A DNA stretch of 64,000 nucleotides from an uncultured Patescibacteria group bacterium (lineage in GTDB: Bacteria; Patescibacteriota; Patescibacteriia; UBA2591; CALHIP01). Under the pieces are notes generated by a model. The model ran no database searches. It was not told the origin of the DNA and was given only the letters and a program-made list of their open reading frames with translations. Below, piece by piece: positions 2 to 26,411 of this stretch (the first letter of the stretch is position 1; every line of letters begins with the position of its first letter). A program made the translations under genes and the position numbers. The stretch lies in the NCBI GenBank assembly GCA_938030745.1, contig CALHIP010000026.1:16404-80403 (forward strand). Reading direction: 5' to 3'.

Positions 2-727
2 AAAAAGACAAAAGAAAAAAAAGCAAAAATTTTTGTCATCTGTGGTGGTGGACAATTACATGAATTGGTAAAAAAATATAACTTCCCTTTCTATCAATTT
101 CAAGGTAAAGGTCCTTCAAGAGCAAATTTTGGTTATTTATTCTCCGCTCTTTTAATTTTATTATTAAAATTGAAATTAACAAAAATTAAAGAAAAAGATT
201 TTATTTCATTGATCAAATTGTTGGAGGAATTTAACAAATTGATTGAGCCGGAAACAACTCTTGAGAAAAATGTAGCAAAATATCTTGCTTATCAAATTTT
301 TGACCACATCCCTTTTATTATTGGAGCGGAGCATCTAAAGGCAGTTGCTTTTCGTTGGAAAAAAGAAATAAATGAAAATGCTAAAACTTTTGCCTTTGCA
401 GAAGAAATGCCAGAATTTTTCCATAACAGTATTGTTGGTTTAGATTTTCCATGGCGAATAAGAGATGATATTTTCTTTTTATTTTTAGAAAGTGAACTTT
501 ATGATAAAAAAATTAAAAAATCATTAGAAATTTTTAAAAATATTTTAAAAAAAGAAAATTTATATTTTGAGACTATCCCAGCTCTTGGCAAAGATAGATT
601 AGATCAAACATTAACTACTCTTCTTTTAGGTGATTGGTTAAGTTTTTATTTAGCGATTTTAAATAAAGTTGATCCAACACCAGTTGAAAATATTGAAATA
701 ATTAAAAGAAAACTAAGAGAAAAATGA
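2..727 (+). CDS. 5'-truncated SIS-domain protein, probably bifunctional phosphoglucose/phosphomannose isomerase (PGI/PMI) C-terminal part
   Basis: Frame 2 is open from the window edge (…IFVICGGGQLHELV…) into the listed ORF 65..727. The motif RWKKEINENAKTFAFAEEMPEFFHNSIVG resembles the conserved RWK-x-QLNENAK…PE-x-NHNEIVG block I recall from archaeal-type PGI/PMI. This is memory-based, not a database hit. Confidence 0.5.
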   Translation, partial: KKTKEKKAKIFVICGGGQLHELVKKYNFPFYQFQGKGPSRANFGYLFSALLILLLKLKLTKIKEKDFISLIKLLEEFNKLIEPETTLEKNVAKYLAYQIFDHIPFIIGAEHLKAVAFRWKKEINENAKTFAFAEEMPEFFHNSIVGLDFPWRIRDDIFFLFLESELYDKKIKKSLEIFKNILKKENLYFETIPALGKDRLDQTLTTLLLGDWLSFYLAILNKVDPTPVENIEIIKRKLREK

Positions 728-2367
728 ACTATATTTTTAAAAGTGGTCTTTTTGGATATTTTTCTATTTTTCTGATTTCTTTTCTCTTTTTCTCTTCTCT
801 TCAATTAGCTAATAAAACATTCCTCTGTCCTGATTCTTTTTACCATGCAAAAATTGCTTCATTTTTATCTAATGGCAAATTAATCAGAAATTTTCCTTGG
901 TTACCTTATACAATTTTAGCTGAAAACTATTCTGATCATCATTTTTTATACCACATTTTACTTATCCCATTTGTCAAACTTTTTGGTGATCAAACTGGCA
1001 TAAAAGTTGCAACTTTATTTTTTGCTACTTTTTCAATTTTTATTTTTTATTGGCTTTTAAGAAAATTTAAAATAAAAGCTGCTTTTGTCTGGACATTTCT
1101 CCTTTTAACTAGTTCAGTTTTTTTAACTAGACTAAATTTAGCTAAGGTTCCGCCAGCTGCCTTATCAGTCCTTTTTTTAGGACTTTATGCTTTATTTAAA
1201 AGAAAATATCTTTTGCTTGGAATAATTTCTTTTGTTTATGTTTGGCTTTACAATACCTGGCCAATTTTATTTGTTGCAACAATTCTTTATTGTTTCGCTA
1301 ACGCTTTTAAAAAAATAATTGATAAGTGGCAGATAATATTTCAAAATTTAAAAAGTTTTAAATTTAGGATTTTAATTTTAGGATTTAAAATTTTCTTTAA
1401 AAATTTTTTTGCTAAAGAAAATTTAGGATTAATCATTTCTTGTTTATTTGGTATTGTTTGTGGTTTAGTCATTAATCCTTATTTTCCTTCAAATCTTTAT
1501 TTTAATTGGGTTCATATTGTCAAAATTGGTTTAAAAAATTATCAAAATATTTTGTCAGTTGGTGCTGAATGGTATCCTTTTGAACCAACCAATCTTATTT
1601 TAAATAATCTCTTTATTTTTGCTGTTTGGTTTATTGCTATTGGCTGGTTTTTTGTCAGTTTTAAAAAATCTTCTTTGTTATTTTCTGGCCAGAAAGCAAA
1701 AACACTTTCTCTTTTTATTTTCTCTTCACTTTTTTTAATTTTTACTATTAAATCAAGAAGAAATGTTGAATATTTTGTTCCCTTAGCCATCCTTTTTTCT
1801 TCTTTTTCACTTAATCGTCTTTTTTCAAATTTTCCTTGGAAAGAGTACTTTTCTCAGTTTAAAGTCAAAGAATTTCCTTATAATTTAATGAGCTTCATTC
1901 TTGGTTTTTTTCTTTTAGTGATTTTTGTTTTCTGTAGCTTTTCTTTTTTTGAAAAAGTTTGGGCAGAAAAAATAAAAGAATTTGCTTCTGGAGCAAGTTT
2001 TGACCAGTTTAAAAAAGTTTCAGAATTCTTAAAAGAAAATACCCAAAAAGGTGAGATAATTTTCCATTCTTCTTGGGACGAATTTCCTCCTCTTTTTTAT
2101 CACAATGATAAAAACTATTATATTGCCGGTCTTGATCCAACTTTTATGTATGAAAAAAATAAGGCTCTTTATTGGATCTGGTTTAATATTGTCAGTGGTA
2201 AACAAAAAAATAATTTAAGTAAAACAATTAAAGAAAATTTTAATGCTCGATATGTTTTTGTTCAGGCAAATCGTCAAAAAATGAAAGAAAATCTTGATCA
2301 GGATAAAGATTTTGAGAAAGTTTACGAAGATAAAGAAGGCTATGTTTACAAAATTAAAAATTTTTAA
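724..2367 (+). CDS. Polytopic membrane glycosyltransferase, GT-C fold (PMT/ArnT/AglB-like)
   Basis: 547 aa with more than 10 predicted TM helices. An early loop contains a CPDSFYHAKIA (D-x-x-YH) motif. A soluble C-terminal domain is present. The start overlaps the upstream stop by 4 nt (ATGA). Confidence 0.55.
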   Translation: MNYIFKSGLFGYFSIFLISFLFFSSLQLANKTFLCPDSFYHAKIASFLSNGKLIRNFPWLPYTILAENYSDHHFLYHILLIPFVKLFGDQTGIKVATLFFATFSIFIFYWLLRKFKIKAAFVWTFLLLTSSVFLTRLNLAKVPPAALSVLFLGLYALFKRKYLLLGIISFVYVWLYNTWPILFVATILYCFANAFKKIIDKWQIIFQNLKSFKFRILILGFKIFFKNFFAKENLGLIISCLFGIVCGLVINPYFPSNLYFNWVHIVKIGLKNYQNILSVGAEWYPFEPTNLILNNLFIFAVWFIAIGWFFVSFKKSSLLFSGQKAKTLSLFIFSSLFLIFTIKSRRNVEYFVPLAILFSSFSLNRLFSNFPWKEYFSQFKVKEFPYNLMSFILGFFLLVIFVFCSFSFFEKVWAEKIKEFASGASFDQFKKVSEFLKENTQKGEIIFHSSWDEFPPLFYHNDKNYYIAGLDPTFMYEKNKALYWIWFNIVSGKQKNNLSKTIKENFNARYVFVQANRQKMKENLDQDKDFEKVYEDKEGYVYKIKNF

Positions 2368-4012
2368 TTTTAAAAAAATCAATCTTTTTGTCATTTTGTT
2401 TTTTACTCTCTTGACTATTTTTATTAGTTGGCCATTAGTCCTTAATCTTGATTCAGCTATTTTTGATTTTTTTATTTTTGATTCATTAAATATTATCTGG
2501 ACTATTAATTGGAATATCCATCAAATTTTTAAAGATCCATTTAATCTTTTCCAGGCAAACAATTTTTATCCAGAAAAAAATGCTCTTGCCTATTCTGAAA
2601 ATCTATTAGGGATTAGTTTTTTAGTTTTACCAATCGTTAAAATTTTTAATAATCCTGTTTTGGCTTATAATTTTTCTCTTTTTTTATCCTTTATTCTTTC
2701 TGGTTATGGAATGTTTTTATTAGTTTATCATTTAACAAAAAATTATTCTGCTTCAATTTTGGCAAGTTTAACTTATACTTTTGCTCCTTTTAAAATCTTA
2801 AGAATGCTTATTCATTTAAATATTGTTTCTGGCCAATGGCTACCATTTGTTTTCTTATATCTTGAAAAATTTTTTGAGGAAAAAAACTTAAAAAATATAA
2901 TTTTATTTTCTTTATTTTTTATTCTTCAGAGTTTAACCTCCCTTCATTATTTTGTTTTTTTATTAGTTAGTGTTTTTGTTTTTTTTATAATCAAGATTTT
3001 TTTAAATCGTCAAATTTTAGATAAAGATTTTTTCAAAAAAATATTTATTTCATTTTTTTTAATTTTTATTTTCCTTCTGCCAATTTTTTTGCCATATTTT
3101 CAAATAAAAGAAGGATCGATAGGTAAGGCATGGGAAATTGCTTTTTATACCCCTTCTTTGAAAGATTATTTAAGAGTATGGTATCTTTTAGAAAAAAAAG
3201 AATTAATTAATAATTTAGAAAAATTTGTTTTTATTGGCTTTGTTCCTTTAATTTTATTAATTTTGTCTATTTTTATTTTTAAAAAAATTAAGAAAGAAAA
3301 TCTTATTATTTATGGAGTCATTGGATTAATTGGTTTTTTATTATCTTTAGGACCTTTAATTAAAATAAAGGAAGGTTATATTTTTGGTTTTTATTTACCT
3401 TTTCTATTTATTCCTGGTTTTAACCAGATCAGAGCGGTTAGCCGATTTTCAATTTTATTATTTTTTGGTTTAAGCATTATCTTTGGTTTAGCATTAGCTC
3501 ATCTTTTTAAAAAGGAAATTTTAAAAAAATTTTTATTTTTTTTCTTATCTATTTTATTTCTTTTTGAGATATTTTTTATCTCTTTAAATTTAGTAAAATT
3601 AATTAGGATTCCGGTTGGTAAAGAAATTCCTGAGGTTTATCAGTGGTTGAAAAAAGAAAAGGAAGATTTTGCCATTCTTGAATTACCAATTGCTTTTAAA
3701 GAACAACTTCCATATCTTTACGCTTTAGATATTAACTCTTTTTATCAATATTTTTCCATTTATCATTGGAAAAAATTGGTCAATGGCGATAGTAGTTATT
3801 ATCCTAATTCTTATTTAGAAAGAGTAAAAATCTTTTTAAATTTTCCCGATGAAAAGTCAATCAAATTGATAAAAGAATTAAAAATTAAATATATCATTCT
3901 TCATTATGATTTAATACCTGAAAAAGAAATGATGGAAAATAAAATCCATCAGTGGCCAGAATTATCTTTAAAAAATGTTTTTGGAAATGATTTTCTCTAT
4001 GAAGTTAAATGA
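2342..4012 (+). CDS. Polytopic membrane protein, putative GT-C glycosyltransferase (start uncertain, 2294 or 2342)
   Basis: About 12 hydrophobic helices followed by a roughly 130-aa hydrophilic C-terminus. It overlaps the 3' end of the previous gene. Confidence 0.45.
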   Translation: MFTKLKIFNFKKINLFVILFFTLLTIFISWPLVLNLDSAIFDFFIFDSLNIIWTINWNIHQIFKDPFNLFQANNFYPEKNALAYSENLLGISFLVLPIVKIFNNPVLAYNFSLFLSFILSGYGMFLLVYHLTKNYSASILASLTYTFAPFKILRMLIHLNIVSGQWLPFVFLYLEKFFEEKNLKNIILFSLFFILQSLTSLHYFVFLLVSVFVFFIIKIFLNRQILDKDFFKKIFISFFLIFIFLLPIFLPYFQIKEGSIGKAWEIAFYTPSLKDYLRVWYLLEKKELINNLEKFVFIGFVPLILLILSIFIFKKIKKENLIIYGVIGLIGFLLSLGPLIKIKEGYIFGFYLPFLFIPGFNQIRAVSRFSILLFFGLSIIFGLALAHLFKKEILKKFLFFFLSILFLFEIFFISLNLVKLIRIPVGKEIPEVYQWLKKEKEDFAILELPIAFKEQLPYLYALDINSFYQYFSIYHWKKLVNGDSSYYPNSYLERVKIFLNFPDEKSIKLIKELKIKYIILHYDLIPEKEMMENKIHQWPELSLKNVFGNDFLYEVK

Positions 4013-5636
4013 AATTGAAAAAATTATTCTAATTTTAATTATTATTTTGGCAGGTTTTTTAAGATTAGTTAGTTTAACTAAAGTTCCTTCTTCTTTTCAT
4101 CATGATGAACTTTTAAGTATTTATGAAGCCTATTCAATTTTTAAAACTGGTTCTGATCAATGGGGAAATTTTTTACCTTTAAGATTTAAAGCTTTTGGTG
4201 ACTGGCCACCGCCTTTATATTTTTATTTTAATGTTCCTTTTGTCTTAATTTTTGGTTTAGAAGAAATTACTGTTAGGTTACCATCTGCTTTTTTAGGAAT
4301 TTTAACAGTTTTTTTAACCTACCTTTTAGCTAAAGAAATCTTTAAAAATAAAACTATTGCCATTTTAGCGAGTTTTTTTCTTTCTATCTCTCCTTGGCAT
4401 CTTCAATATTCAAGGCTAGCTTGGCCAGCAATTATGGTTCCATTTTTAATTAGTTTAGGACTTTGGTTATTTTTTTCTGGTCTGAATAATCAAAAGAATT
4501 CCCGCATTTATTTTGCCATCTTTTTTATTTCTCTTTCTGCTTGGGTCTATACACCAGCTCAAGTCTTTGTTCCTCTGTTTCTTTTTGGTCTATTCATTTT
4601 TTATCATAAGAAGGTAGAAAAAAAAGTTATTTTTTATAGTTTTATCATTTCTTTAATTGTTCTTTTTCCTTTATATTTTTTGAGTTTAATTATTCATCCA
4701 GAATGGCAAACAAGATACAATCAGATCTCAATTTTTTCTTTAAATCAAACAGGATCAGTTAAGTTAGCTCTTTTTCTTTATAATTATCTTTCCCATATTA
4801 GCCCTTATTTTCTCTTTATTTATGGTGATAGTAATCTTAGACATAATCCTTTAGGAATTGGCCAGCTTCATTTTTTTGAAATGTTTCTTTTATTTTTTCT
4901 AATTATTTATATAATCACTCCTCAGATTTTTAGAAAACAAAAGTTTTCTCATTTGCCATTTCTTTTTTATTGGTTTTTTATTTTTCCTTTACCTTCTTCT
5001 TTAACAATTGAAAATATTCCTCATGCTACTCGAACAATTGTCGCTTTACCATTGGTCCATCTTTTTTCTTCTTTAGGTCTTTATCTAATTGTTTCCAATT
5101 TAAAAAATTTTAAATTTCTTTACCCTTTTACCTTGATGATTATTGTTATTATTATAGGCTTATCCTTTTCTTTATATTTATTAAATTATTATAAATTCTA
5201 TCCAATCTATTCTGCTTCTTGGTTTGGCTATGGAAATAAGGAGGTAGTAGAATATATTAAAGAAAATCTAAATAATTACGAAAGATTTGTCTTTTCTGGA
5301 ACAAGATACCATCCCTATCTTTATTTTGTTTTCTATTTTAAAATTGATCCGAAAGTTTTCCAAAAGACAGTTAAAACAGATAAAGATTTTGAAGAAAAAT
5401 ATAAAGTGGTGATTGTAAAAAGTTTTAATAATTTTGAATTTAAAGAATCTCTAAAAGAGGAAAAATTTTTACCAAAAACTCTTTATATAGAAAAAAGATA
5501 TCTTGAAACAGAAATAGAAACTGAAAAACAGAATTTGGGGGAAACTTTATTAGAAGAAATTCCTTTAGAAATAAAAAGAATTATTTATTTACCTAATGGG
5601 TTAGAAGCATATCGAATTTATGAATTTAAAAAATGA
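3975..5636 (+). CDS. GT39/GT83-family (ArnT/dolichyl-phosphate-mannose protein mannosyltransferase-like) membrane glycosyltransferase
   Basis: The N-terminal block ILAGFLRLVSLTKVPSSFHHDELLSIYEAYSIFKTGSDQWGNF…GDWPPPLYFY is typical of the PMT_2/ArnT family. It has a polytopic TM region plus a soluble C-terminal domain. Confidence 0.7.
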   Translation: MFLEMIFSMKLNEIEKIILILIIILAGFLRLVSLTKVPSSFHHDELLSIYEAYSIFKTGSDQWGNFLPLRFKAFGDWPPPLYFYFNVPFVLIFGLEEITVRLPSAFLGILTVFLTYLLAKEIFKNKTIAILASFFLSISPWHLQYSRLAWPAIMVPFLISLGLWLFFSGLNNQKNSRIYFAIFFISLSAWVYTPAQVFVPLFLFGLFIFYHKKVEKKVIFYSFIISLIVLFPLYFLSLIIHPEWQTRYNQISIFSLNQTGSVKLALFLYNYLSHISPYFLFIYGDSNLRHNPLGIGQLHFFEMFLLFFLIIYIITPQIFRKQKFSHLPFLFYWFFIFPLPSSLTIENIPHATRTIVALPLVHLFSSLGLYLIVSNLKNFKFLYPFTLMIIVIIIGLSFSLYLLNYYKFYPIYSASWFGYGNKEVVEYIKENLNNYERFVFSGTRYHPYLYFVFYFKIDPKVFQKTVKTDKDFEEKYKVVIVKSFNNFEFKESLKEEKFLPKTLYIEKRYLETEIETEKQNLGETLLEEIPLEIKRIIYLPNGLEAYRIYEFKK

Positions 5637-6316
5637 TCTCCCTTATCATTCCAACTTATAAAGAAAAAGAAAATATTGGTAAATTACTTTTTTTGATTTG
5701 TAAACTTAATCTTAAGGATTTTGAAGTAATTGTTGTTGATGATAATTCACCTGATAACACAGCTGAAGAAGTAGAAAAAAATGCTAAAAAATTGCCTTTG
5801 AAAATAAAATTGATTAAAAGAAAAGGTAAAAGGGATTTATCTCTTTCTGTTTTGGAAGGATTTAAAAAAGCAAAAGGAGAAATTTTAGGAGTAATGGACG
5901 CTGATTTTTCTCATCCACCAGAATTGATTCCAAAAATGATTAAAGAATTGGAAAATGTTGATTTAGTTATTGCCAGTCGAAAAATCTCTGGTGGAGAAAT
6001 CAAAAAATGGCCATTAAAAAGGAAAATTTTTTCAGGATTAGCAACTTTTCTGGCTAAAACCTTAGTTCCAAAAATCTCTGATCCTTTATCTGGTTTTTTC
6101 TTCTTTAAAAGAAAAATTATTAAAGAATTAAAACTTTCACCAATTGGTTATAAAATAGGCTTAGAAATTTTTGTTAAAGGAAAATATAAAAATTTTAAAG
6201 AGATACCATTTGTTTTTAAAGATAGAGAAATTGGAAAAAGTAAGTTAAATTTTAAAGTAATTTTAAAATTTCTTTTCCATATTTTAAAACTCTGGTTTTG
6301 GAAAATAAAAAAATGA
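5633..6316 (+). CDS. GT2 glycosyltransferase, polyprenol-phosphate mannose/glucose synthase (DPM1/GtrB-like)
   Basis: LIIPTYKEKENI…VIVVDDNSPDNT…LGVMDADFSHPPE are GT-A motifs including DxD. A C-terminal amphipathic/TM tail is present. Size 227 aa. Confidence 0.8.
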   Translation: MISLIIPTYKEKENIGKLLFLICKLNLKDFEVIVVDDNSPDNTAEEVEKNAKKLPLKIKLIKRKGKRDLSLSVLEGFKKAKGEILGVMDADFSHPPELIPKMIKELENVDLVIASRKISGGEIKKWPLKRKIFSGLATFLAKTLVPKISDPLSGFFFFKRKIIKELKLSPIGYKIGLEIFVKGKYKNFKEIPFVFKDREIGKSKLNFKVILKFLFHILKLWFWKIKK

Positions 6317-7512
6317 AAGAAATAAAAAAAATTTATTTTTTTCTTTTTCTAGTTATTGTTTTAATCAAATTTTTATTTTTACCTTTTTTTGGTGATTTTT
6401 ATGATTTATTTCTTCATAGTCAATGGGCAAATTTTTTAATTAAAAATCCAATCAATGAGATTTATTCAAAAACAAATTGTAATCTTCCGCCATTTTGGGT
6501 TTATATTTTATGGTTATTTTCTAAAATTCATTTTTTAATCACCAATAAAATAGTTTTTGTTTATTCAGAGGTCTTAAAAATTCCAGCTATTCTTTTTGAT
6601 ATTTTTACTGGCCTTTTGATTTTTTATTTTTTAATTAAAGAAAAAATTGAAGAAAAAAAAGTATTTTTAGCTAGCTTATTTTTCCTTTTAAATCCTTTTG
6701 TTTTTTATCTTTCTTCTTTTTGGGGCCAGCTAGATTCAATCTATGTTTTTTTTATTCTTCTTTCTTTTATTTTTCTTTATTATAAAAAAACAATTTTTGC
6801 CTCAATTTTTCTAGCCCTTTCTTTTTTAACTAAACTCCAAGGGATTATTTTTTTCCCTTTGTTTTTCTTTATTCTTTTTAAAAATTATCCTTTTAAAAAG
6901 ACAATTTTTTCTCTTTTAACTATTCTTCTTGTTATTTTTATTATTCTTTTACCTTTTCTTATTAAAGGATATTCACCAGTTTTTATTTTCCAAAAAACTT
7001 GGATAGCCTCTTGGCGGTTTGCAAATTTTCTTTCTTTAAATGCTTTTAATCTCTGGTGGATTCCTCAGATAATTTTTTCTTTTTTGGAACCTCCTTATAT
7101 TTATGACTACCTTCCTTTGTTTGGCTCAATAAATTTTAAAATGATTTCTTTGATTCTTTTTTCTCTTTTTTATTTGTTAATTATTTTAAATATTAGAAAA
7201 AACATTTTCTTTTTAGCTAGTTTAGTCTCTTTTTTGTTTTTTATGATACCAACAGCTATGCATGAAAGGTATATCTTTCCATTTTTTGCTTTCTTTTCAA
7301 TTTTTTGGCCAATAAAAAGAGGTTATTTAAAATATTATTTTTATCTTTCTTTAACTTCATTTTTAAATCTTTTAGCTGTTTTACCACCAACCTTTCTTTT
7401 CGAAGAAACTCAAAAAATTTTTTCTCTTTTTATTGGTCAATTAAGTATTCCCTTAACACTTATTAATATCTTTATTTTCTTTTATTTTTTCTTTATTCTT
7501 TTTAAAATATGA
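6298..7512 (+). CDS. Polytopic membrane protein, putative GT-C mannosyltransferase (DUF2029/GT87-like)
   Basis: 404 aa, almost entirely TM helices, within the GT cluster. Confidence 0.4.
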   Translation: MENKKMKEIKKIYFFLFLVIVLIKFLFLPFFGDFYDLFLHSQWANFLIKNPINEIYSKTNCNLPPFWVYILWLFSKIHFLITNKIVFVYSEVLKIPAILFDIFTGLLIFYFLIKEKIEEKKVFLASLFFLLNPFVFYLSSFWGQLDSIYVFFILLSFIFLYYKKTIFASIFLALSFLTKLQGIIFFPLFFFILFKNYPFKKTIFSLLTILLVIFIILLPFLIKGYSPVFIFQKTWIASWRFANFLSLNAFNLWWIPQIIFSFLEPPYIYDYLPLFGSINFKMISLILFSLFYLLIILNIRKNIFFLASLVSFLFFMIPTAMHERYIFPFFAFFSIFWPIKRGYLKYYFYLSLTSFLNLLAVLPPTFLFEETQKIFSLFIGQLSIPLTLINIFIFFYFFFILFKI

Positions 7513-7787
7513 GAAAAAATTTTTTAATTACTGGTGGAGCAATCAATAATTTAATCATTTCAATTCTTTTTGGTTTATCTTTAGTTAAAATTTTAGAAAT
7601 TATTAAAGAAATTTCTTTCCGCCCAAATTTATTAGAAATTTTACTTCTTCTTTTTTGTTCTTCTCAATTTTATAGCTATCTTCCTCGATTAGTTCAGAAA
7701 AAAATATATTCATGCATAACTCTTTTATTTATATTTCTAAATAGAAATTATGATAAAAATTCTTATTGTTTTACCAACTTACAATGA
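7509..7787 (+). CDS. Small membrane protein, possibly a truncated GtrA-family flippase-like protein
   Basis: MRKNFLITGGAINNLIISILFGL resembles the GtrA N-terminus. It sits immediately upstream of, and overlapping, a GtrB-like GT2 gene. It is short (92 aa), so it could be spurious. Confidence 0.3.
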   Translation: MRKNFLITGGAINNLIISILFGLSLVKILEIIKEISFRPNLLEILLLLFCSSQFYSYLPRLVQKKIYSCITLLFIFLNRNYDKNSYCFTNLQ

Positions 7788-8472
7788 AGAGAAGGTAGTT
7801 GAAGAAAATACATTAAAAGTTTTTGAATTTTGCCAGAAAAATCTAAAAGATTTTGATTGGCAGATTTTAATAGCTGATAATGGATCAATTGATAAAACAT
7901 TTAAAATTGCTGAAAGACTTTCAAAAAAATATCAAAAAATTTCATTTTTCCATATCCCTGAGAAAGGAAGGGGTTATGCTTTAAAAAAGGCATGGTCAGA
8001 ATATCAGGCTGATATTTATTCTTATATGGATATTGATCTTTCTTCTGATTTAAATTCTTTTCCTTTATTGATTAAGGCAATTACTGAAAATAATTATGAT
8101 TTAGCAATTGGCTCGCGTTTGAAAAAGGGAGCAAAAAAAAGGCGTTCTTTCTTAAGAGAAATTATGAGTCGAGTTTATAATCTTCTTTTAAAAATTTTAT
8201 TTAATCCATCATTTGAAGATGCCCAATGTGGTTTTAAGGCTATCTCAAAAAGAGTCGCCAAAGAAATTCTACCGAAAGTAAAAAATAATCATTGGTTTTT
8301 TGATACTGAACTTTTAATTTTAGCTGAAAAAGCAGGTTTTAAGATTAAAGAAATTCCAATTGAATGGATAGAAAAAAGAACAGTTAAAAGGAAAAGTACA
8401 GTTAAAATTTTTTCAACAATTTGGGAAGATATTAAAGGAATAATAGAATTAAAATTTCGGTTAAAGAAATAA
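7750..8472 (+). CDS. GT2 glycosyltransferase, dolichol/polyprenol-phosphate sugar synthase (GtrB/DPM1-like)
   Basis: ILIVLPTYNEE…LIADNGSIDKT…YMDIDLSSD (DxD)…QCGFKA are GT2 hallmarks. Confidence 0.8.
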   Translation: MIKILIVLPTYNEEKVVEENTLKVFEFCQKNLKDFDWQILIADNGSIDKTFKIAERLSKKYQKISFFHIPEKGRGYALKKAWSEYQADIYSYMDIDLSSDLNSFPLLIKAITENNYDLAIGSRLKKGAKKRRSFLREIMSRVYNLLLKILFNPSFEDAQCGFKAISKRVAKEILPKVKNNHWFFDTELLILAEKAGFKIKEIPIEWIEKRTVKRKSTVKIFSTIWEDIKGIIELKFRLKK

Positions 8473-9279: not shown

Positions 9280-9315
9280 AAAGAGAGGGGTAAGATACCC
9301 CTCTCTTTAACTTTT
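9280..9315. terminator. Bidirectional rho-independent terminator: 13-bp perfect stem AAAGAGAGGGGTA/TACCCCTCTCTTT with 3-nt loop, T-runs on both strands
   Basis: Stem 9280-9292 / 9296-9308, followed by AACTTTTTATTTTTAT on the plus strand and preceded by CAAAAAGG on the plus strand (a T-run when read on the minus strand). It lies between convergent genes. Confidence 0.8.
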
Positions 9316-9323: not shown

Positions 9324-9761
9324 TCAACTTGTCTTGACTCTGAAAGGCTTTTCTACTCCTAATCTTTCTAAAATAAATAAATAGATCACTCGGGCTAAAA
9401 TAATGATAACTAAACCAAGAATTGCTTCTTTAATTAAATTTTTTGCTTTTTTAATCTGTTCTTCATTTGCTGAACCAGTTATCCATAAAAAGCCACCATA
9501 AATAATAATAATAATAAAAATAACACCAATAAAAGTTAAAAGATAGTTAATAATTTTAACAATTGTCATTATTGGATCTGTCTCTGTTGGAAGCTCTGGC
9601 ATTTCTTTAGTTACCTCTCCCCAGACTTTTTTTAAAAGATTTAAAGTTCGTTCTTCTACTGGTGTTTGAGCAAAACTTTGGGATAAAGATGAAAAAACAA
9701 AAAGAAGAAAAATCAGCCAAAAAAGAATTATTTTAAATTTTTTAAAGGCAGTAATTTTCAT
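9324..9761 (-). CDS. Pilin-like secreted protein with two-TM core (TrbC/VirB2-like T4SS-pilin family), paralog A
   Basis: Signal peptide MKITAFKKFKIILFWLIFLLFVFSSLSQSFA. Core IINYLLTFIGVIFIIIIIYGGFLWITGSANEEQIKKAKN plus a second TM helix. Confidence 0.55.
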   Translation of the reverse strand: MKITAFKKFKIILFWLIFLLFVFSSLSQSFAQTPVEERTLNLLKKVWGEVTKEMPELPTETDPIMTIVKIINYLLTFIGVIFIIIIIYGGFLWITGSANEEQIKKAKNLIKEAILGLVIIILARVIYLFILERLGVEKPFRVKTS

Positions 9762-9766: not shown

Positions 9767-10183
9767 TTATTTAGGCTGGAAAGAAGCAAGGCCGTGTAGT
9801 CGGCTAATTACAAAAGCAGTAATTGTATAGGCAAAAAGAATAACAAGTAAACCAACAAGAGCATAAGTCAAAGTTTTTTTTGCTTTTCCAACTTTTTCTT
9901 CATTACCACCAGCGGTCATCCAAAGGTAACCACTGTAAATAATCATACAAACTGCTATCACTCCTAAAAAAGATAAAAGATATTGAATAATATTAAAAAC
10001 AATTTCAAGAATATCTCCTTTTTCAAGAATTGGTGTTCCTTCAATTAATTCAGATTCATAATCTGATGGTGAGGGAGGTTCTTCTTGAGCTAATAAAATT
10101 TGATTCGGCAAGAAAAAAAATAATAAGAAAATAATAAAACTTTTAAGGAAGATTGATTTCCTCTTATTATTTTTTTTAATCAT
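9767..10183 (-). CDS. Pilin-like protein, paralog B
   Basis: Signal peptide. Core IIQYLLSFLGVIAVCMIIYSGYLWMTAGGNEEKVGKAKK plus a second TM helix. Confidence 0.55.
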   Translation of the reverse strand: MIKKNNKRKSIFLKSFIIFLLFFFLPNQILLAQEEPPSPSDYESELIEGTPILEKGDILEIVFNIIQYLLSFLGVIAVCMIIYSGYLWMTAGGNEEKVGKAKKTLTYALVGLLVILFAYTITAFVISRLHGLASFQPK

Positions 10184-10269: not shown

Positions 10270-10632
10270 TTAGGCAAAAGCTCTCAATTGACTGATGACG
10301 AATGAAGCAAGAGCAAAGGCAAGTAAAACAACAATTAAACCAATTAAACCTTGAATTAGGACTTTTTTTGCTTTTCCAACTTTTTCTTCATTACCACCAG
10401 CAGTCATCCACATAAATCCACCAATAATAATCACTACTAAAGCAACTACACCTAAAAAGGCAAGAACATACTGGATAGCAGTAAAGATAATTTTAATTAG
10501 ATCGGCGTTTTTTAAGACTGGCGTCGGTGCAACAAGATTGTTCATCCATTCTTCCCAATTATTAACTTGAGCAAAAACTATAGCTGGTAGAACTAAAAGA
10601 GTTAAGCTTAAAGGTAAAATTAATTTTTTCAT
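10270..10632 (-). CDS. Pilin-like protein, paralog C
   Basis: Signal peptide MKKLILPLSLTLLVLPAIVFA. Core AIQYVLAFLGVVALVVIIIGGFMWMTAGGNEEKVGKAKK. GGAGGG RBS upstream. Confidence 0.55.
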   Translation of the reverse strand: MKKLILPLSLTLLVLPAIVFAQVNNWEEWMNNLVAPTPVLKNADLIKIIFTAIQYVLAFLGVVALVVIIIGGFMWMTAGGNEEKVGKAKKVLIQGLIGLIVVLLAFALASFVISQLRAFA

Positions 10633-10750: not shown

Positions 10751-11104
10751 TTATTTCGGCTGTTCGATAAATTTTTTAATAATGAAAGTCACTAATGAAT
10801 AGGAGAAAAAGACAATGGCTAAACCAAGAGTTGCCCAAACTAATGTATTTTTTCCTTTTTTGACTTGTTCAACGTTGCCACCAGAAGTCATCCAGAGAAT
10901 ACCACCATAAATAAACATAATTAAAGCTAAAACACCAACAATGCCTAAAACAAGTTTAATCGCATTGGCAATGATTTGATACATCTCAAGATTGCCAAGG
11001 GGAGAAGGAAGTTCTTCTTGGGCAAAAATAGGTCTAATAAAATTAAAAAGTAAAAAGTAAAAAGTAAAAATGGTAAGAATAATTATTTTTTTAGAAAGAG
11101 ACAT
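10751..11104 (-). CDS. Pilin-like protein, paralog D (start trimmed to the Met of signal peptide MSLSKKIIILTIFTFYFLLFNFIRPIFA)
   Basis: The listed ORF 10751..11212 overlaps the upstream paralog by about 100 nt. The internal ATG at 11102-11104 gives a canonical signal peptide and a 10-nt intergenic gap. Core YGGILWMTSGGNVEQVKKGKN. Confidence 0.5.
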   Translation of the reverse strand: MSLSKKIIILTIFTFYFLLFNFIRPIFAQEELPSPLGNLEMYQIIANAIKLVLGIVGVLALIMFIYGGILWMTSGGNVEQVKKGKNTLVWATLGLAIVFFSYSLVTFIIKKFIEQPK

Positions 11105-11114: not shown

Positions 11115-11567
11115 CTATTCTGATTTTTTTTCTTCGGTAGTAGGAAAAACATACCATTTTTTAGAGCCGAAAATCTCACAGGACTGAAGAATCTGACCTT
11201 TTGAAAGACCACAAATAATTATATTGACAATATACCAGGAAAGAAAAACAATCATCAAGCCAAATAAAGTACCAATTAAAATTTGTTTTCCTCTTTTCAC
11301 TCTTAAAGGGTTTCCGCCTGAAGTTATCCAGATTATACCACCAACAATGAAAAAGATCAAAGCAAGAACTCCAATTATTCCTAAAAGAAAAAGAGAAACA
11401 CCTCTAGCTAATCTTAAAAAATCAATTAATTGACAATTGCCTTCTTCCCGACACTCCAAACTTACTTCCTTAAGGATATACCATTCAGCAGCGGAAACAG
11501 ATCTAAGAAATAAAAGAGGAAAAATAATCAATAATAAACCAGCGATTAATAAATTCTTTTTTTTCAT
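11115..11567 (-). CDS. Pilin-like protein, paralog E (Cys-containing N-terminal ectodomain)
   Basis: Signal peptide MKKKNLLIAGLLLIIFPLLFLRSVSA. Core LGIIGVLALIFFIVGGIIWITSGGNPLRVKRGKQ plus a second TM helix. Confidence 0.5.
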   Translation of the reverse strand: MKKKNLLIAGLLLIIFPLLFLRSVSAAEWYILKEVSLECREEGNCQLIDFLRLARGVSLFLLGIIGVLALIFFIVGGIIWITSGGNPLRVKRGKQILIGTLFGLMIVFLSWYIVNIIICGLSKGQILQSCEIFGSKKWYVFPTTEEKKSE

Positions 11568-11572: not shown

Positions 11573-12958
11573 TTATTTTATTGTTTGATTTATTTTTAAA
11601 ACAGCAAAATTAATTGCCTCTTTATAGGTTTTTTTACCATCAATGACATCATTAATCATTTCCTTCATCGCTTCTTCCATTAAAAGAGCATTTTTACCTT
11701 TATACCAAGAAAAAGCAGTTAAAGATTGACTGGCGAAAACTTCTAAATCAGGATCTTTCATTTGTTCAACAATTAAGCTTCTTAAAGCTGTTGGTTTTTT
11801 AGTTTTAAGAAGATAACCAACAGGATTTAAGGCAGAAAATTTTAAAAATGCCCAAGCTAAATCTTTATTTTCACTTTTTTTTGAAACAACCTGAACTTGA
11901 TAATGAGCGAAATTTATTTCTTTAATTGTTCCTTCTGGTTGAGGCATTTTAGCAATTCCTAAAGGAATGTTTGGTCCTTGGCTTCTAATTAAAGGAAGGT
12001 GATAGGCATAACCGAAGAAAAAAGCTAATTTTCCTTGAGTAAAAAGTTCTAAAGCTCTTGGCATTTCTTTATTCCAAGTATAGATTTCTTTATTTTTATC
12101 TTGAAAATCAGTATAAAATCTTAATGCCTCTTCTGCTGGAAAATAATTTGGATCACCAGCTAATGGCTGGTTAAAAGTAGCAAAACCATCTGGATTACTC
12201 ATTGAAGTTCCAACCTGCATCATTAACAATGATAAAATATCAGTTGGTCTTTCAATATTATTAGTAGTCCCTAAAGCAGCTCCTGCTTGATAAATATTTC
12301 CTTCTTTATCAATTAAAGTTAATTTTTTTACTTGTTGAATAAATTCTTCCCAAGTTTTTGGTGGTAAAGGAATTTTTGCTACATCTAGAAGATCCCGATT
12401 ATAATATAAAACTAAAGTATCAAAACTTAAAGGAAGACCATAAATTTTATTATTAATCACAACATCTTTTTCAACCTGAGCAACAAACAACTTTGATAAA
12501 TCTTCAACTCTTAAAAGTTTTTCTTCTTTTGTTAAAATCTTTCTTTTTTTAAAACAGCCTGGGCCTGTTTCAATTTCTTTTTTTAAAAAAACACTATTTG
12601 GCATTGGTTCAAGCCATTCTTTGGCATATTCTCTTATCCAAGTATTAGGTAAAGAAAAAATATCAGGGCCAACTCCTTTTGCCCAAGCCTCAATTAAAGC
12701 ATCTTTGTATTCTTCATACCGAAGTTTTCTCACGTTAATATTAACATGAGGATAAACAGCTTGAAATTGACTAATCAAAGGAGAAAAATCAGATGGTTCT
12801 TCCCAAATTACCCACCAATTTAAAGTAACTGGCGGTAAAATTGGCTTTTTAGCTGGTGCTCCTGGCATTGGCAACTGAGGAATCTGGCTTTCTACTTTCG
12901 CTCCAAAGATAAGAAAGAAAAAAATTAAAGATAAGAGGAAAATTTTAACTAACCGCAT
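11573..12958 (-). CDS. ABC-transporter family-1 extracellular solute-binding protein (sugar/oligosaccharide type); no cognate permease or ATPase nearby
   Basis: 461 aa with an N-terminal signal/anchor sequence. The overall pattern NWWVIWEEP…GPDIF…W matches the SBP_bac_1 family. Confidence 0.6.
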   Translation of the reverse strand: MRLVKIFLLSLIFFFLIFGAKVESQIPQLPMPGAPAKKPILPPVTLNWWVIWEEPSDFSPLISQFQAVYPHVNINVRKLRYEEYKDALIEAWAKGVGPDIFSLPNTWIREYAKEWLEPMPNSVFLKKEIETGPGCFKKRKILTKEEKLLRVEDLSKLFVAQVEKDVVINNKIYGLPLSFDTLVLYYNRDLLDVAKIPLPPKTWEEFIQQVKKLTLIDKEGNIYQAGAALGTTNNIERPTDILSLLMMQVGTSMSNPDGFATFNQPLAGDPNYFPAEEALRFYTDFQDKNKEIYTWNKEMPRALELFTQGKLAFFFGYAYHLPLIRSQGPNIPLGIAKMPQPEGTIKEINFAHYQVQVVSKKSENKDLAWAFLKFSALNPVGYLLKTKKPTALRSLIVEQMKDPDLEVFASQSLTAFSWYKGKNALLMEEAMKEMINDVIDGKKTYKEAINFAVLKINQTIK

Positions 12959-12967: not shown

Positions 12968-13828
12968 TTATAATTTTAAAATTTTTTTAAGATCTTTTTG
13001 AATTTCTGGATGTTTTAATCCTATTTCAATATTTGCTTTTAGCCAACCAATTTTATTTCCGCAGGAAAGCCATTCCCCTTGATATTGATAAGCATAAATT
13101 TCAATTCCTTTTTCTAATAAAATTTTTAAAGCGTCAGTTAAATAAATTTCTTGGCCTGGTTTTATTTTTTTTGATCTTAAATTTTCTAAAGGCTGAAAAA
13201 TTTCCGGAGTTAAAATATAGCGACCGGTAATCGCTAAATTTGATGGTGCTTGGGAAATTTTCGGTTTTTCAATTACATCTAAAACTTTAAAAATTCTTTT
13301 TTCTATTCTTTTTCCTTTTATTATACCATAAGAAGATACTTCTTTTTTTAAAACAGGATGAACAGCTAAAACAATTTTTTTATATTTTTGATAAACCTCT
13401 ATTAATTGTCTAAGACAAGGAATCTTACTTTCGATAACATCATCAGCAAAGAATAAAGCAAATGGTTCATTCTTAACTTTATTTTTTACACATAAGATAG
13501 CATCACCAATTCCTAAAGGTTTTTTTTGATAAAGATAGGTAATCTTTGAGATGTTTGTTTTTTCTATTTCTTTTAAAAGATCGAATTTTTTCCTTTTAAC
13601 TAAAATATATTCTAATTTTTTATTTTTTTTAAAATAATCTTTAATATTTTCTTTTTCTTTTGAAATAACCAAGATAATATTCTTGATTCCTGAATTAAAT
13701 ATCTCTTCAATTAAATATTGAAGAACTGGTTTATCAACTAAAGGAAGCATCTCTTTAGGAAACGCCTTAGTGATAGGTAAAAACCTTGTTCCTAAACCGG
13801 CTGCTAAAATAACAGCTTTTTTGATCAT
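12968..13828 (-). CDS. galU: UTP--glucose-1-phosphate uridylyltransferase
   Basis: KAVILAAGLGTRFLPITKAFPKEMLPLVDKPVLQY is the canonical GalU N-terminus. Confidence 0.85.
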   Translation of the reverse strand: MIKKAVILAAGLGTRFLPITKAFPKEMLPLVDKPVLQYLIEEIFNSGIKNIILVISKEKENIKDYFKKNKKLEYILVKRKKFDLLKEIEKTNISKITYLYQKKPLGIGDAILCVKNKVKNEPFALFFADDVIESKIPCLRQLIEVYQKYKKIVLAVHPVLKKEVSSYGIIKGKRIEKRIFKVLDVIEKPKISQAPSNLAITGRYILTPEIFQPLENLRSKKIKPGQEIYLTDALKILLEKGIEIYAYQYQGEWLSCGNKIGWLKANIEIGLKHPEIQKDLKKILKL

Positions 13829-16870: not shown

Positions 16871-17584
16871 TTACTGTCTTTTAAAGAGAAAAGTTTGTTG
16901 AAAGATGGTTAAAATTAAATTGACTAACCAATAAAGAACTAAACCACTTGGTAAACCTAAGCTAATAACAAATGTAAAAATAGGCATCATTACCTTCATT
17001 TGTTTATTAAGAACTCCCATCACTGACTCATTTTCCTTTCTTTTTTCTTTTGGCATCTTGACTAATGATCTTTTTGTTTCAAACATTTTTATTTGAAAAT
17101 ATTGAAAAAGGCCAGTTAATAAAGCTAAAGAAAAATTTTTTTCAGCTAAATTAAACAATCCAAAAGCAACTAAATTAAGTTGTCCTGGGTTTTTTATAAA
17201 TGGATAAAGAGGTAAAGTTTGACTAAAAAGACCAGTTCTGAAAACTTGATAGACAGCAATAAGAATTGGTAATTGGATGATTAAAAAGAAGAAGGGAGAG
17301 AATGGATTAATTTTATAAGTTTTATAAAGCTGAATTGTTTCCTGAGCAAGTTTTACTTTATCATAAGAAAATTTTTTCTTGATTTCTTCTAATTTCGGTT
17401 GAAGTTCGGCTAAAGATTTTTGAACTCTAATTTGTGAAAGAGATAAAGGATATAAAATTAGTTTAACAAAGATTGTTAAGAAAATAATTGATAAACCTAA
17501 ATCATAAAAACCAATAGTTTGATAGAAAAAGATTAAAAGATTTAAAAGAGGTTGATAAAAAATGAGGTTAAAAATTTTAATCAT
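16871..17584 (-). CDS. yidC: Membrane protein insertase YidC (short, Gram-positive-type)
   Basis: YQTIGFYDLGLSIIFLTIFVKLILYPLS, an amphipathic helix, and C-terminal LPSGLVLYWLVNLILTIFQQ. Confidence 0.8.
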   Translation of the reverse strand: MIKIFNLIFYQPLLNLLIFFYQTIGFYDLGLSIIFLTIFVKLILYPLSLSQIRVQKSLAELQPKLEEIKKKFSYDKVKLAQETIQLYKTYKINPFSPFFFLIIQLPILIAVYQVFRTGLFSQTLPLYPFIKNPGQLNLVAFGLFNLAEKNFSLALLTGLFQYFQIKMFETKRSLVKMPKEKRKENESVMGVLNKQMKVMMPIFTFVISLGLPSGLVLYWLVNLILTIFQQTFLFKRQ

Positions 17585-21412: not shown

Positions 21413-21430
21413 AGCTTATCTTATCAGTTC

Positions 21431-21459
21431 TTTACTGTTTTGTCAAATTTTGATATAAT
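21431..21459 (+). promoter_or_regulatory. Extended -10 promoter (TTTACT, 17 nt, TGaTATAAT) 8 nt upstream of the S1-gene ATG
   Basis: TATAAT at 21454-21459 with TG at 21451-21452. No SD before the ATG at 21468, implying a leaderless or near-leaderless mRNA. Confidence 0.45.
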
Positions 21460-21467
21460 GAATAAAT

Positions 21468-24301: not shown

Positions 24302-24303
24302 TT

Positions 24304-26392: not shown

Positions 26393-26411
26393 TTTGATAT
26401 AATAAAATAAT

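What the first reader, a model, noticed from the sequence alone, without database searches (positions are those of the whole stretch)
11573..12958. Orphan ABC-type solute-binding protein fused into the pilin operon
The window has a 461-aa family-1 (sugar-type) SBP with a signal/anchor but no permease or ATPase genes anywhere in it. Its stop is 5 nt from the first pilin start, and its own start is 9 nt downstream of galU. An SBP co-transcribed with surface-filament subunits may act as a tip or adhesin lectin or a receptor, rather than as a transporter component.
Basis: inference. Interest (0 to 1): 0.5.

Follow-up and report, generated by a model that had tools for sequence, protein, structure and literature searches.

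The report
Orphan sugar-binding protein paired with T4SS pilin
In an ultra-small (Patescibacteria/CPR) bacterium, a sugar-binding protein of the kind that normally feeds an ABC importer has no importer genes nearby. Instead, across hundreds of species, it sits directly upstream of one specialised VirB2-like secretion-system "pilin", which points to an undescribed surface module, probably for glycan recognition.

Summary
Window 11573-12958(-) encodes a 461-aa family-1 (MalE-like) solute-binding protein (SBP). It starts 9 nt after galU and ends 5 nt before the first of five tandem pilin genes. The window contains no ABC permease or ATPase. The "pilins" are VirB2/TrbC-like T4SS pilins (PF18895), not type IV pilins, and the host is a Patescibacteria (CPR) bacterium.

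The new result is comparative. In 68 of 77 species-level genomes carrying an SBP orthologue, the next gene on the same strand is a T4SS pilin (72/77 within three genes). The flanking genes fall into 15 upstream and 24 downstream families. That adjacent pilin ("P1") is its own orthogroup. It has a long extracellular C-terminal tail that carries a peptidoglycan-binding domain in some species. In the reverse direction, 47 of 50 metagenome loci found through P1 have the SBP immediately upstream. No MalF/G/K homologue occurs in 1.17 Mb around these genes. A published transporter inventory of closed ABY1 genomes lists a sugar SBP but no matching permease or ATPase.

Best reading: a membrane-tethered oligosaccharide receptor that works with a dedicated VirB2-like pilin rather than an ABC transporter. 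The actual mechanism (adhesion, sensing, uptake or assembly) is inferred only. I found no published description of this pairing.

The parts
11573..12958 (-). Orphan family-1 (MalE-like, oligosaccharide-type) solute-binding protein, 461 aa. It has an N-terminal hydrophobic segment, a Pro-rich linker (no lipobox Cys in this clade) and a family-specific beta-hairpin insertion at about residues 121-148.
   Evidence: Pfam SBP_bac_1 and SBP_bac_8. AlphaFold2 model with pLDDT 92.9. Best Foldseek PDB matches are oligosaccharide SBPs of ABC importers. More than 1600 homologues, the named ones all Patescibacteria. The hairpin has no counterpart in alignments to 1eu8 or E. coli MalE.
11115..11567 (-). 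P1, the SBP-partner VirB2-like pilin (150 aa): signal peptide, two TM helices around a basic loop, and a roughly 33-aa extracellular C-terminal tail.
   Evidence: PF18895, 33.5 bits. P1 is a distinct orthogroup: the best cross-genome hit of 61/67 P1s is another P1, against 4/247 for other pilins. The C-terminal tail has a median of 30 aa against 6.5 aa, p=1.7e-19. P1 is immediately downstream of the SBP in 68/77 genomes.
10751..11104 (-). Pilin P2 (117 aa), VirB2/TrbC-like.
   Evidence: PF18895 at 45 bits and PF04956 TrbC at 29.3 bits. The start at 11104 comes from the independent gene call in L001 and from reading the sequence.
10270..10632 (-). Pilin P3 (120 aa), VirB2-like.
   Evidence: PF18895 at 35.7 bits. 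NCBIfam NF045849, Mbov_0395 pilin-like conjugal transfer protein, 43.1 bits against a cut-off of 40.
9767..10183 (-). Pilin P4 (138 aa), VirB2-like.
   Evidence: PF18895 at 40.3 bits.
9324..9761 (-). Pilin P5 (145 aa), VirB2-like, last gene of the string.
   Evidence: PF18895 at 33.6 bits.
9280..9308 (.). Bidirectional intrinsic-terminator-like hairpin (13-bp stem, 6 GC pairs, T-runs on both strands) closing the pilin string and the convergent gene.
12968..13828 (-). GalU-like UTP-glucose-1-phosphate uridylyltransferase (286 aa), immediately upstream. It is a frequent but not obligatory neighbour.
   Evidence: PF00483, E 8.7e-36. A homologue is at position -1 in 32 of 78 orthologous loci.
724..8472 (+). 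Convergent glycosylation cluster. It holds three large multi-TM GT-C-like proteins (the third matches PMT_2), a GT2, an unknown 10-TM protein and a second GT2. PGI lies at 65-727. Context only: it recurs beyond the pilin array in a subset of genomes.
   Evidence: Pfam, TM counts. GT2b homologues lie at +4 to +8 in 22 loci, and GT-C and PGI homologues in 8-11 loci. The same order is seen in L004.

Best explanation
The SBP and the pilin gene directly after it (P1) form a conserved two-gene surface module of Patescibacteria (class ABY1-type lineages: Uhr-, Falkow-, Kuenen- and Buchananbacteria and relatives).

The SBP is exported and held at the outer face of the membrane. Most species use a lipid anchor; this clade uses an N-terminal hydrophobic segment plus a Pro-rich linker. 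It keeps the two-lobe MalE-like fold of oligosaccharide-binding proteins.

Instead of docking on an ABC permease, it works with P1. P1 is a specialised VirB2-like two-TM protein whose extended C-terminal tail also faces outward, and in some species that tail carries a peptidoglycan-binding domain.

The most likely function is glycan recognition at the cell surface in the service of the T4SS-like pilus apparatus. That could mean binding a host or cell-wall oligosaccharide to mediate or gate attachment, or to position or trigger the pilin system.

What is shown: the fold, the export signal, the absence of ABC partners nearby, the near-obligate SBP-P1 gene pairing, and P1 being a distinct paralogue with an extracellular tail.

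What is inferred: physical SBP-P1 contact, a glycan ligand, and a role in host interaction.
For: 1. Pairing. A T4SS pilin gene is the next same-strand gene in 68/77 species genomes (72/77 within 3 genes) and is never upstream. The median gap is about 9 nt.
2. The pairing survives rearrangement. There are 15 different upstream gene families and 24 different first non-pilin downstream families. The upstream genes are unrelated housekeeping genes: GalU, ComM, SMC, GyrA, amidase, DnaJ and others.
3. P1 is a dedicated paralogue (61/67 against 4/247 reciprocal best-hit test). It has a long extracellular tail, which carries PG_binding_1 in L022, L026 and L047 (E 4e-14 to 2e-9).
4. Reverse test. Of 50 metagenome loci found through P1 with enough upstream DNA, 47 have the SBP immediately upstream, and 19 truncated loci show a partial SBP at the contig edge.
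5. No ABC partner. There is no MalF or MalG hit (E>5), and only weak MalK hits to UvrA/SMC-like proteins, in 1.17 Mb. Multi-TM neighbours are EamA, Wzx, Wzy or GT-C, never BPD_transp_1. Closed ABY1 genomes list K02027 without K02025/K02026 (PMC11809585 Table S10).
6. SBP fold. pLDDT is 92.9, and the closest structures are maltodextrin, cellodextrin, beta-glucan and trehalose binders. Invariant columns are rich in Trp, Tyr and Asp. D180 aligns with MalE E111.
7. Biological context. VirB2-like pilin arrays are described in Patescibacteria, and in Southlakia epibionticum they are essential for epibiotic growth (PMC12102498, PMC10633639).
Against: - No direct evidence exists for an SBP-P1 interaction, a ligand, or localisation.
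- Membrane-tethered SBPs are also the norm for ordinary ABC importers of monoderm bacteria, and orphan SBPs that use distal permeases are known.
- I could not scan the whole genome of this organism, or of any locus-bearing genome, for permeases.
- The orthology of the K02027 gene in the published ABY1 inventory to this family is presumed, not checked.
- Many of the sampled genomes are related, so the counts are not independent events. The metagenome sample is dominated by one synteny type.
- No VirB4 or other T4SS core gene lies in the window, so the link to a T4SS machine is by homology of the pilins only.
- It is not established that these VirB2-like proteins form pili in Patescibacteria.
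Confidence: 0.45

Rival explanations
1. Ordinary ABC-importer SBP. The protein delivers an oligosaccharide (for example maltodextrin or trehalose) to a CUT1 permease/ATPase encoded elsewhere in the genome. On this reading, adjacency to the pilins reflects co-regulation of envelope genes or inherited synteny.
For: The fold and closest structures are all ABC-importer SBPs. The protein is membrane-tethered as in monoderm importers. The window encodes an alpha-glucan/maltose-type cluster (GlgA-like, two GH57, APH-family kinase, GalT-like) and galU next door, so sugar acquisition would make metabolic sense. I could not scan whole genomes.
Against: No permease or ATPase lies within about +/-10 kb in 78 genomes or in the 64-kb window. 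The published inventory of two closed and eight draft ABY1 genomes has the sugar SBP but no sugar permease or ATPase. Inherited synteny does not explain why only the SBP-P1 junction is preserved while both flanks vary, nor why P1 is a dedicated paralogue.
Confidence: 0.15
2. Envelope-glycan or pilin-glycosylation factor. GalU makes UDP-glucose, the GT2 enzymes make polyprenyl-phosphate sugars, and the GT-C (PMT_2-like) enzymes transfer them outside the membrane. The SBP binds the glycan, or the glycosylated P1 tail or cell-wall polymer, as an extracytoplasmic assembly, chaperone or quality-control component rather than a host receptor.
For: GalU is at -1 in 32/78 loci. GT2 lies at +4 to +8 in 22 loci, and GT-C and PGI lie beyond the array in 8-11 loci. 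The window and L004 share the order PGI/GT-C/GT2, then pilins, SBP. Wzx and Wzy genes lie upstream in several loci. P1 tails are often Ser/Thr/Pro-rich or carry PG_binding_1.
Against: These neighbours are present in only a minority to about 40% of loci, whereas SBP-P1 is present in about 90%. No glycosylation of these pilins is known. The clade with SMC/ComM upstream lacks GalU and the GTs nearby.
Confidence: 0.2
3. Pilin-handling factor. The SBP fold binds the C-terminal tail peptide of P1, not a sugar. It then acts as an extracytoplasmic chaperone, retention factor or assembly gate for the VirB2-like pilins.
For: The one-to-one genetic pairing with a pilin that differs from the others mainly in its tail. 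The family-specific beta-hairpin insertion in the SBP could be a protein-interaction element. In this clade the SBP has lost its lipid anchor, so retention might depend on a protein partner.
Against: SBP_bac_1/MalE-like proteins overwhelmingly bind carbohydrates. The SBP is much more conserved (44-50% identity across the family) than P1 (23-36%), and P1 tails vary greatly in length and content. That is hard to reconcile with one conserved peptide ligand.
Confidence: 0.12

Closest known systems
Oligosaccharide-binding SBPs of CUT1 ABC importers (E. coli MalE, Thermococcus litoralis TMBP 1eu8, Thermotoga MalE1/2, C. thermocellum CbpB)
   Same: Same Pfam family and the same two-lobe fold (TM-score to targets 0.72-0.79). 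Secreted and membrane-tethered. Conserved aromatic and acidic residues typical of sugar clefts.
   Different: Only 16-22% identity. No NCBIfam equivalog is reached. There is an extra beta-hairpin of about 25 aa. No permease or ATPase genes are linked in any of 78 or more genomes. The conserved neighbour is a VirB2-like pilin instead.
VirB2-like pilin arrays of the Patescibacteria T4SS (Quinonero-Coronel et al. 2025, PMC12102498; essential pilin array of Southlakia epibionticum, Wang et al. 2023, PMC10633639)
   Same: PF18895/PF04956 proteins in tandem arrays of 2-11 divergent paralogues. Here there are 5 in the window and 1-11 in orthologous loci.
   Different: Those papers do not mention any solute-binding protein (0 occurrences of the terms). 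They also do not distinguish an SBP-linked pilin paralogue with an extended tail. This array is not next to virB4.
Archaeal bindosome (Sulfolobus Bas system; Zolghadr et al. 2011, PMC3047682)
   Same: Conceptually the closest precedent: sugar-binding proteins functionally tied to pilin-like proteins at the cell surface.
   Different: Bindosome SBPs carry class III (type IV prepilin) signal peptides, depend on a type IV pilus-like ATPase/platform (BasEF), and still feed ABC transporters. Here the signal is Sec/lipoprotein-type, the pilins are T4SS VirB2-like, and no ABC transporter is evident.
SBPs used as co-receptors or recruited by T4SS systems: ChvE-VirA (Agrobacterium), LuxP-LuxQ, MBP-Tar, and PrgZ/TraC of enterococcal MPF-FATA conjugative plasmids (from my own knowledge)
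   Same: These are SBPs working outside, or borrowed from, their transporter. ChvE and PrgZ specifically control T4SS-related functions.
   Different: ChvE belongs to a different SBP family and signals to a histidine kinase. PrgZ is an OppA-type peptide binder that uses the host Opp permease. No kinase, chemoreceptor or Opp-like partner is linked here, and the partner is a pilin.

Membership tests
CUT1-type ABC importer substrate-binding protein (Pfam SBP_bac_1) | SBP_bac_1 sequence signature and two-lobe periplasmic-binding-protein fold | tested here: met
   Pfam 101 bits against a cut-off of 26. AF2 pLDDT 92.9. Foldseek E 1e-25 to MalE-like SBPs.
CUT1-type ABC importer substrate-binding protein (Pfam SBP_bac_1) | Export signal with lipid or membrane tether (monoderm type) | tested here: met
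   N-terminal hydrophobic segment. 100/116 orthologues have a Cys at the end of the h-region; the window clade lacks it.
CUT1-type ABC importer substrate-binding protein (Pfam SBP_bac_1) | Genetic linkage to two BPD_transp_1 permeases and an ABC ATPase | tested here: not met
   No MalF, MalG or MalK homologue in the window or in 78 loci, 1.17 Mb in total. Pfam of multi-TM neighbours shows none. Whole genomes were not scanned. The published ABY1 inventory lacks them.
CUT1-type ABC importer substrate-binding protein (Pfam SBP_bac_1) | Binds a solute and delivers it to a permease | not testable with these tools
   Needs biochemistry. Only residue conservation consistent with a sugar cleft was seen.
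Patescibacteria VirB2-like T4SS pilin array | PF18895/PF04956 small proteins with a signal peptide and two TM helices | tested here: met
   All five genes exceed the PF18895 gathering score. Each shows 3-4 hydrophobic segments (signal peptide plus the TM helices) in the hydropathy scan. NF045849 exceeds its cut-off for P3.
Patescibacteria VirB2-like T4SS pilin array | Tandem array of divergent paralogues | tested here: met
   5 in the window. Runs of 1-11 in orthologous loci.
Patescibacteria VirB2-like T4SS pilin array | Association with virB4 and other T4SS core genes | tested here: not met
   No VirB4-like ATPase in the 64-kb window; all Walker-A ORFs are ClpB-like, FtsH, RecA, ComM or IF-2. 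The literature says only about 58% of assemblies have the pilin near virB4. Presence elsewhere in this genome is untested.
Patescibacteria VirB2-like T4SS pilin array | Assembly into an extracellular pilus | not testable with these tools
   No structural or imaging data.
Archaeal bindosome-type SBP | Class III (prepilin) signal peptide on the SBP and a Bas type-IV-pilus-like assembly system | tested here: not met
   The N-terminus is Sec/lipoprotein-type. No T4P ATPase or platform gene is adjacent.
SBP co-receptor of a signalling protein (ChvE/LuxP/MBP-Tar type) | Linked or identifiable sensor kinase or chemoreceptor partner | tested here: not met
   No kinase or MCP among the conserved neighbours. 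A distal partner cannot be excluded.

The most novel reading that the evidence does not exclude
The SBP-P1 pair is the receptor end of an ABC-independent acquisition route. A membrane-tethered oligosaccharide binder captures host or cell-wall glycans and hands them to, or gates, the VirB2-like pilus/T4SS conduit on which these epibiotic, biosynthetically poor bacteria depend. This would be an SBP-dependent function of a type IV secretion-like machine, and it could determine host specificity.
Probability: 0.12. Interest if true: 0.9.

Novelty: new variant of a known kind. Interest (0 to 1): 0.62.

Why it matters
Patescibacteria are a very large and mostly uncultured part of bacterial diversity. 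Their T4SS-like system and pilin arrays are essential for epibiotic growth in the one species tested genetically, yet nobody knows what these systems recognise or move.

A near-obligate pairing of an oligosaccharide-binding protein with one dedicated pilin paralogue, found in at least several hundred species, gives a concrete and testable handle. It supplies a candidate ligand-recognition component, a candidate adaptor pilin with a cell-wall-binding tail, and a case of an SBP fold recruited away from ABC transport.

It also corrects routine annotation. These genes are currently labelled [quoted passage not shown] and are counted as evidence of sugar import in metabolic reconstructions.

Tried and rejected
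- Motif search for ABC ATPases (Walker A + LSGGQ) flagged only SMC/UvrA-like proteins of 850-1100 aa in the loci. I replaced it with tblastn using E. coli MalFGK.
- A strict lipobox regex undercounted lipoproteins, because position -1 is often I, R or Q. I replaced it with a column count in the alignment.
I repeated it with 12 closer P1s, which biases the sample to one synteny type.
- A word-based homologue search with the window's own P1 found only 4 proteins, because P1 evolves fast. It was of no use for finding domain fusions.
- I suspected a LAS-type (M15-like) peptidase domain in the long P1 tails of L078 and L059 from H..D/HxH motifs. Pfam did not confirm it, so I make no claim.
- Sigma-70 promoter-like sites do not exceed the shuffled expectation (37 against 33.2), so I make no promoter claims.
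- Rfam found no regulatory RNA near the locus.
- The AFDB fold library was unavailable.
- A complex (SBP+P1) structure prediction was not attempted.
- The unknown 8-TM, 282-aa protein at 24304-25152 was checked as a possible divergent permease. It has no Pfam hit at E<=1 and no EAA motif.
Full report
**1. What is at the coordinates**

The ORF at 11573-12958 on the minus strand encodes a 461-aa protein. It matches Pfam SBP_bac_1 (E 1.6e-28) and SBP_bac_8 (E 2.9e-24) and has a single N-terminal hydrophobic segment.

- The upstream gene (12968-13828) is a GalU-like nucleotidyltransferase (PF00483, E 8.7e-36). Its TAA is followed by 9 nt and then the SBP ATG.
- The SBP TAA is followed by 5 nt and then the ATG of the next gene.
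- Five tandem genes follow on the same strand: 11115-11567, 10751-11104, 10270-10632, 9767-10183 and 9324-9761. All exceed the gathering score of Pfam PF18895 (T4SS_pilin), and several also hit TrbC/VirB2. P3 exceeds the cut-off of NCBIfam NF045849, a pilin-like conjugal transfer protein of mycoplasma ICEs.
- So the "pilins" are VirB2-like type IV secretion pilins, not type IV pilins.
- The string ends at a strong bidirectional terminator-like hairpin at 9280-9308.
- The second pilin probably starts at 11104 (117 aa), as in an independent gene call and as read from the sequence.

The window has about 28% G+C, a GyrA with an inserted Hint-like segment, and only housekeeping genes otherwise. All named close homologues of the SBP are from Patescibacteria/CPR MAGs.

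**2. Absence of ABC partners**

- tblastn with E. coli MalF, MalG and MalK (sequences fetched) was run against the window plus 78 non-redundant orthologous loci, 1.17 Mb in total. MalF and MalG gave nothing better than E = 5.
- MalK gave only weak hits (E >= 0.002) inside large UvrA/SMC-like ORFs. MalE found the SBP in 76 loci.
- Pfam scans of nearly all window ORFs of 150 aa or more found no BPD_transp_1 or importer-type ABC_tran.
- Multi-TM proteins near the orthologues are EamA, Wzx-type flippases, Wzy_C or GT-C-like proteins.
[quoted passage not shown] It lists no K02025/K02026 permease and no sugar ATPase (PMC11809585, Table S10).
- That genus is classified as Falkowbacteria in NCBI taxonomy, a lineage represented among my loci. 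I did not verify that its K02027 gene belongs to this exact family.

**3. The adjacency is conserved**

The SBP has more than 1600 detectable homologues. The best 120 are 44-78% identical and about 440-480 aa long.

I called ORFs in the 80 best loci and built a pilin HMM seeded from the five window pilins. It found 333 hits with a median of 129 bits.

- In 68 of 77 loci with downstream DNA, the gene immediately downstream on the same strand is a T4SS pilin. In 72 of 77 there is one within three genes. None has a pilin upstream. The median intergenic gap is about 9 nt.
- Independent gene calls with precomputed Pfam hits show the same pattern in two distant genomes (44% and 48% identity) whose upstream genes differ: TyrRS in one, SMC in the other.
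- Among loci with the pairing, the nearest upstream gene belongs to 15 unrelated families (GalU in 26, ComM-like in 11, SMC in 8, then GyrA, a PBP, an amidase, DnaJ, a reverse transcriptase and others). The first non-pilin gene downstream belongs to 24 families.
- The one junction that survives all these rearrangements is SBP to pilin.

**4. The partner is one particular pilin**

- In an all-against-all comparison of 315 pilins, the best hit in another genome of 61 of 67 SBP-adjacent pilins (P1) is another P1. The same is true of only 4 of 247 other pilins.
- P1 differs from the others chiefly in a long C-terminal segment after the second TM helix: median 30 aa against 6.5 aa, Mann-Whitney p = 1.7e-19.
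- By VirB2 topology (established knowledge) that segment is extracytoplasmic, on the same side as the SBP.
- The window's P1 has a tail of about 33 aa, against 5-14 aa in P2-P5.
- In L022, L026 and L047 the tail contains a PG_binding_1 peptidoglycan-binding domain (E 4.4e-14, 2.1e-9 and 2.6e-12), with weaker matches in L020 and L031. In other species it is a long Cys-rich region.
- P1 evolves faster than the SBP. P1s are 23-36% identical to the window P1 where the SBPs are 43-50% identical. In the window's close relatives the figures are 49% for P1 and 75% for the SBP, inferred to be from one contig because the two proteins report the same longest-contig length.

Reverse test: a metagenome scan seeded with P1 sequences gave 80 loci. 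Of 50 with at least 1450 nt upstream, 47 have the SBP orthologue immediately upstream. A further 19 truncated loci show a partial SBP ORF at the contig edge. This sample is dominated by one synteny type (SMC-ComM-SBP-P1-RodZ-like-methyltransferase), so it is less independent than the genome sample.

**5. The protein itself**

- An AlphaFold2 model built on 116 orthologues has a mean pLDDT of 92.9. Only the linker at residues 19-32 is disordered.
- The best Foldseek PDB matches are oligosaccharide-binding SBPs of ABC importers: Thermotoga maltotriose and maltotetraose binders, Listeria cycloalternan binder, Clostridium cellodextrin binder CbpB, Thermococcus trehalose/maltose binder and a beta-1,2-glucan binder. 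Identity is 16-22%, and the TM-score normalised to the target is 0.72-0.79.
- No NCBIfam equivalog threshold is approached.
- A beta-hairpin at about residues 121-148 has no counterpart in the alignments to 1eu8 or to E. coli MalE, yet it is conserved in the family.
- Invariant columns are rich in Trp, Tyr, Phe and Asp (W49, D99, Y111, W203, Y282, W295, Y353, W369, W418, Y419). D180 (invariant in A1; 90% or more in A2) aligns with the maltose-contacting E111 of MalE (the role of MalE E111 is from my own knowledge). This fits a carbohydrate cleft but does not prove one.
- 100 of 116 orthologues have a Cys at the end of the signal h-region, the lipoprotein type. The window's clade of 15, plus one other sequence, has Val or Ala there, followed by a Pro-rich linker. 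The window nevertheless encodes signal peptidase II (35999-36442).

**6. Other recurrent neighbours**

- GalU is at position -1 in 32 of 78 loci. A GT2 like 7750-8472 lies at +4 to +8 in 22 loci. GT-C-like membrane proteins and PGI lie beyond the array in 8-11 loci.
- The window and L004 share the order PGI / GT-C / GT2, then (convergent) pilins, SBP.
- This suggests a link to extracytoplasmic glycosylation in part of the lineage. It is much less constant than the SBP-P1 link.

**7. Interpretation**

The shown facts are these:
- a well-folded, exported, oligosaccharide-type SBP;
- no ABC partner in the neighbourhood in any genome examined;
- a near-obligate gene pairing, robust to rearrangement, with one specialised VirB2-like paralogue;
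- an extended outward-facing tail on that paralogue, with a peptidoglycan-binding domain in some species.

The best-supported explanation is that the SBP has been recruited from transport to work with P1 as a membrane-proximal glycan-recognition module of the Patescibacteria pilin/T4SS-like system (confidence about 0.45). Physical contact, the ligand and the downstream effect (adhesion, gating, sensing or uptake) are all inferred.

Rivals:
- a conventional importer SBP with distal permeases (about 0.15);
- an envelope- or pilin-glycosylation factor tied to GalU/GT2/GT-C (about 0.2);
- a pilin-tail-binding chaperone or retention factor (about 0.12).

The orphan status and the functional link hold up well. 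The membrane tether in most orthologues argues against a distal tip location, and the filaments are T4SS-type.

**8. Comparison with what is known**

- VirB2-like pilin arrays in Patescibacteria are described (PMC12102498), and the array is essential in Southlakia epibionticum (PMC10633639). Neither paper mentions a solute-binding protein.
- My full-text searches for the combination found nothing relevant.
- The nearest conceptual precedent is the Sulfolobus bindosome, in which sugar-binding proteins depend on pilin-like proteins (PMC3047682). That system uses type IV prepilin signals and still feeds ABC transporters.
- ChvE-VirA and PrgZ (my own knowledge) are SBPs tied to T4SS regulation, but they belong to other SBP families and have other partners.

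I therefore file this as a new variant of known kinds: a MalE-like SBP and VirB2-like pilins in an undescribed, widely conserved pairing.

Noticed in passing
L022:11524-12300, L026:3893-4720, L047:6514-7326 (also L020:9684-10496, L031:11272-12000): VirB2-like pilins fused at their extracellular C-terminus to a PG_binding_1 peptidoglycan-binding domain. The searched papers on Patescibacteria T4SS do not mention a pilin-PG-binding fusion.
   Followed up: partly
L005:2154-3185, L023:11355-12284, L078:11328-12716, L059:2579-3670: P1 pilins with C-terminal extensions of 150-330 aa rich in Cys (repeated C-x-x-G-x-x-C modules). L078 and L059 end in H..D / HxH motifs reminiscent of LAS metallopeptidases, but Pfam gives no hit.
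   Followed up: partly
window 17581-20496 (-): GyrA (971 aa) carries an inserted segment of about 150 aa beginning CFTKDT... and ending ...VHNS, which looks like a mini-intein.
   Followed up: no
window 39219-45815 (+): Alpha-glucan/maltose-type cluster: GlgA-like starch synthase, two GH57 proteins (one like a maltose-forming amylase), an APH-family kinase (possibly a maltokinase) and a GalT/HIT-like transferase. It is relevant to the question of which sugar the SBP might bind.
   Followed up: partly
window 13825-16485 (-): ClpB-like double-AAA protein (886 aa) with an unusual N-terminus: a CxxC...CxxC zinc-ribbon-like motif followed by two hydrophobic segments. This suggests a membrane-anchored disaggregase.
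   Followed up: no
window 724-7512 (+): Three tandem multi-TM proteins of about 550 aa (8-10 TM; only the third hits PMT_2) and a 404-aa 10-TM protein with no Pfam family. Homologues recur next to the pilin arrays of other genomes.
   Followed up: partly
window 18000-26400: The cumulative GC skew reaches its minimum near 18-20 kb, and dnaN lies at 25289-26392. The replication origin may therefore be close to the SBP-pilin string, in line with the published remark that Patescibacteria T4SS genes tend to lie near the origin.
   Followed up: no
window 24304-25152 (+): A 282-aa protein with 8 predicted TM segments, directly after ftsH. It has no Pfam hit even at E<=1 and no ABC-permease EAA motif.
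   Followed up: partly
L013, L016-L023 and many other loci (record titles): Many MAG records titled 'uncultured Gammaproteobacteria bacterium' carry typical Patescibacteria gene content (this SBP, pilin arrays, about 0.5-0.9 Mb chromosomes). The organism labels look wrong.
   Followed up: no
PMC11809585 Table S10 (literature): The same closed ABY1 genomes also list an orphan peptide/nickel SBP (K02035) without Opp/Dpp permeases. Orphan SBPs may be a general feature of this class.
   Followed up: no
window 37940-39106 (-), 47885-49633 (-), 50555-51304 (-): Several secreted cell-wall-active proteins: LysM-CHAP hydrolase, VanW/PG_binding_4 protein and a Peptidase_C39_2 protein. These fit a lifestyle that involves another cell's wall.
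   Followed up: no
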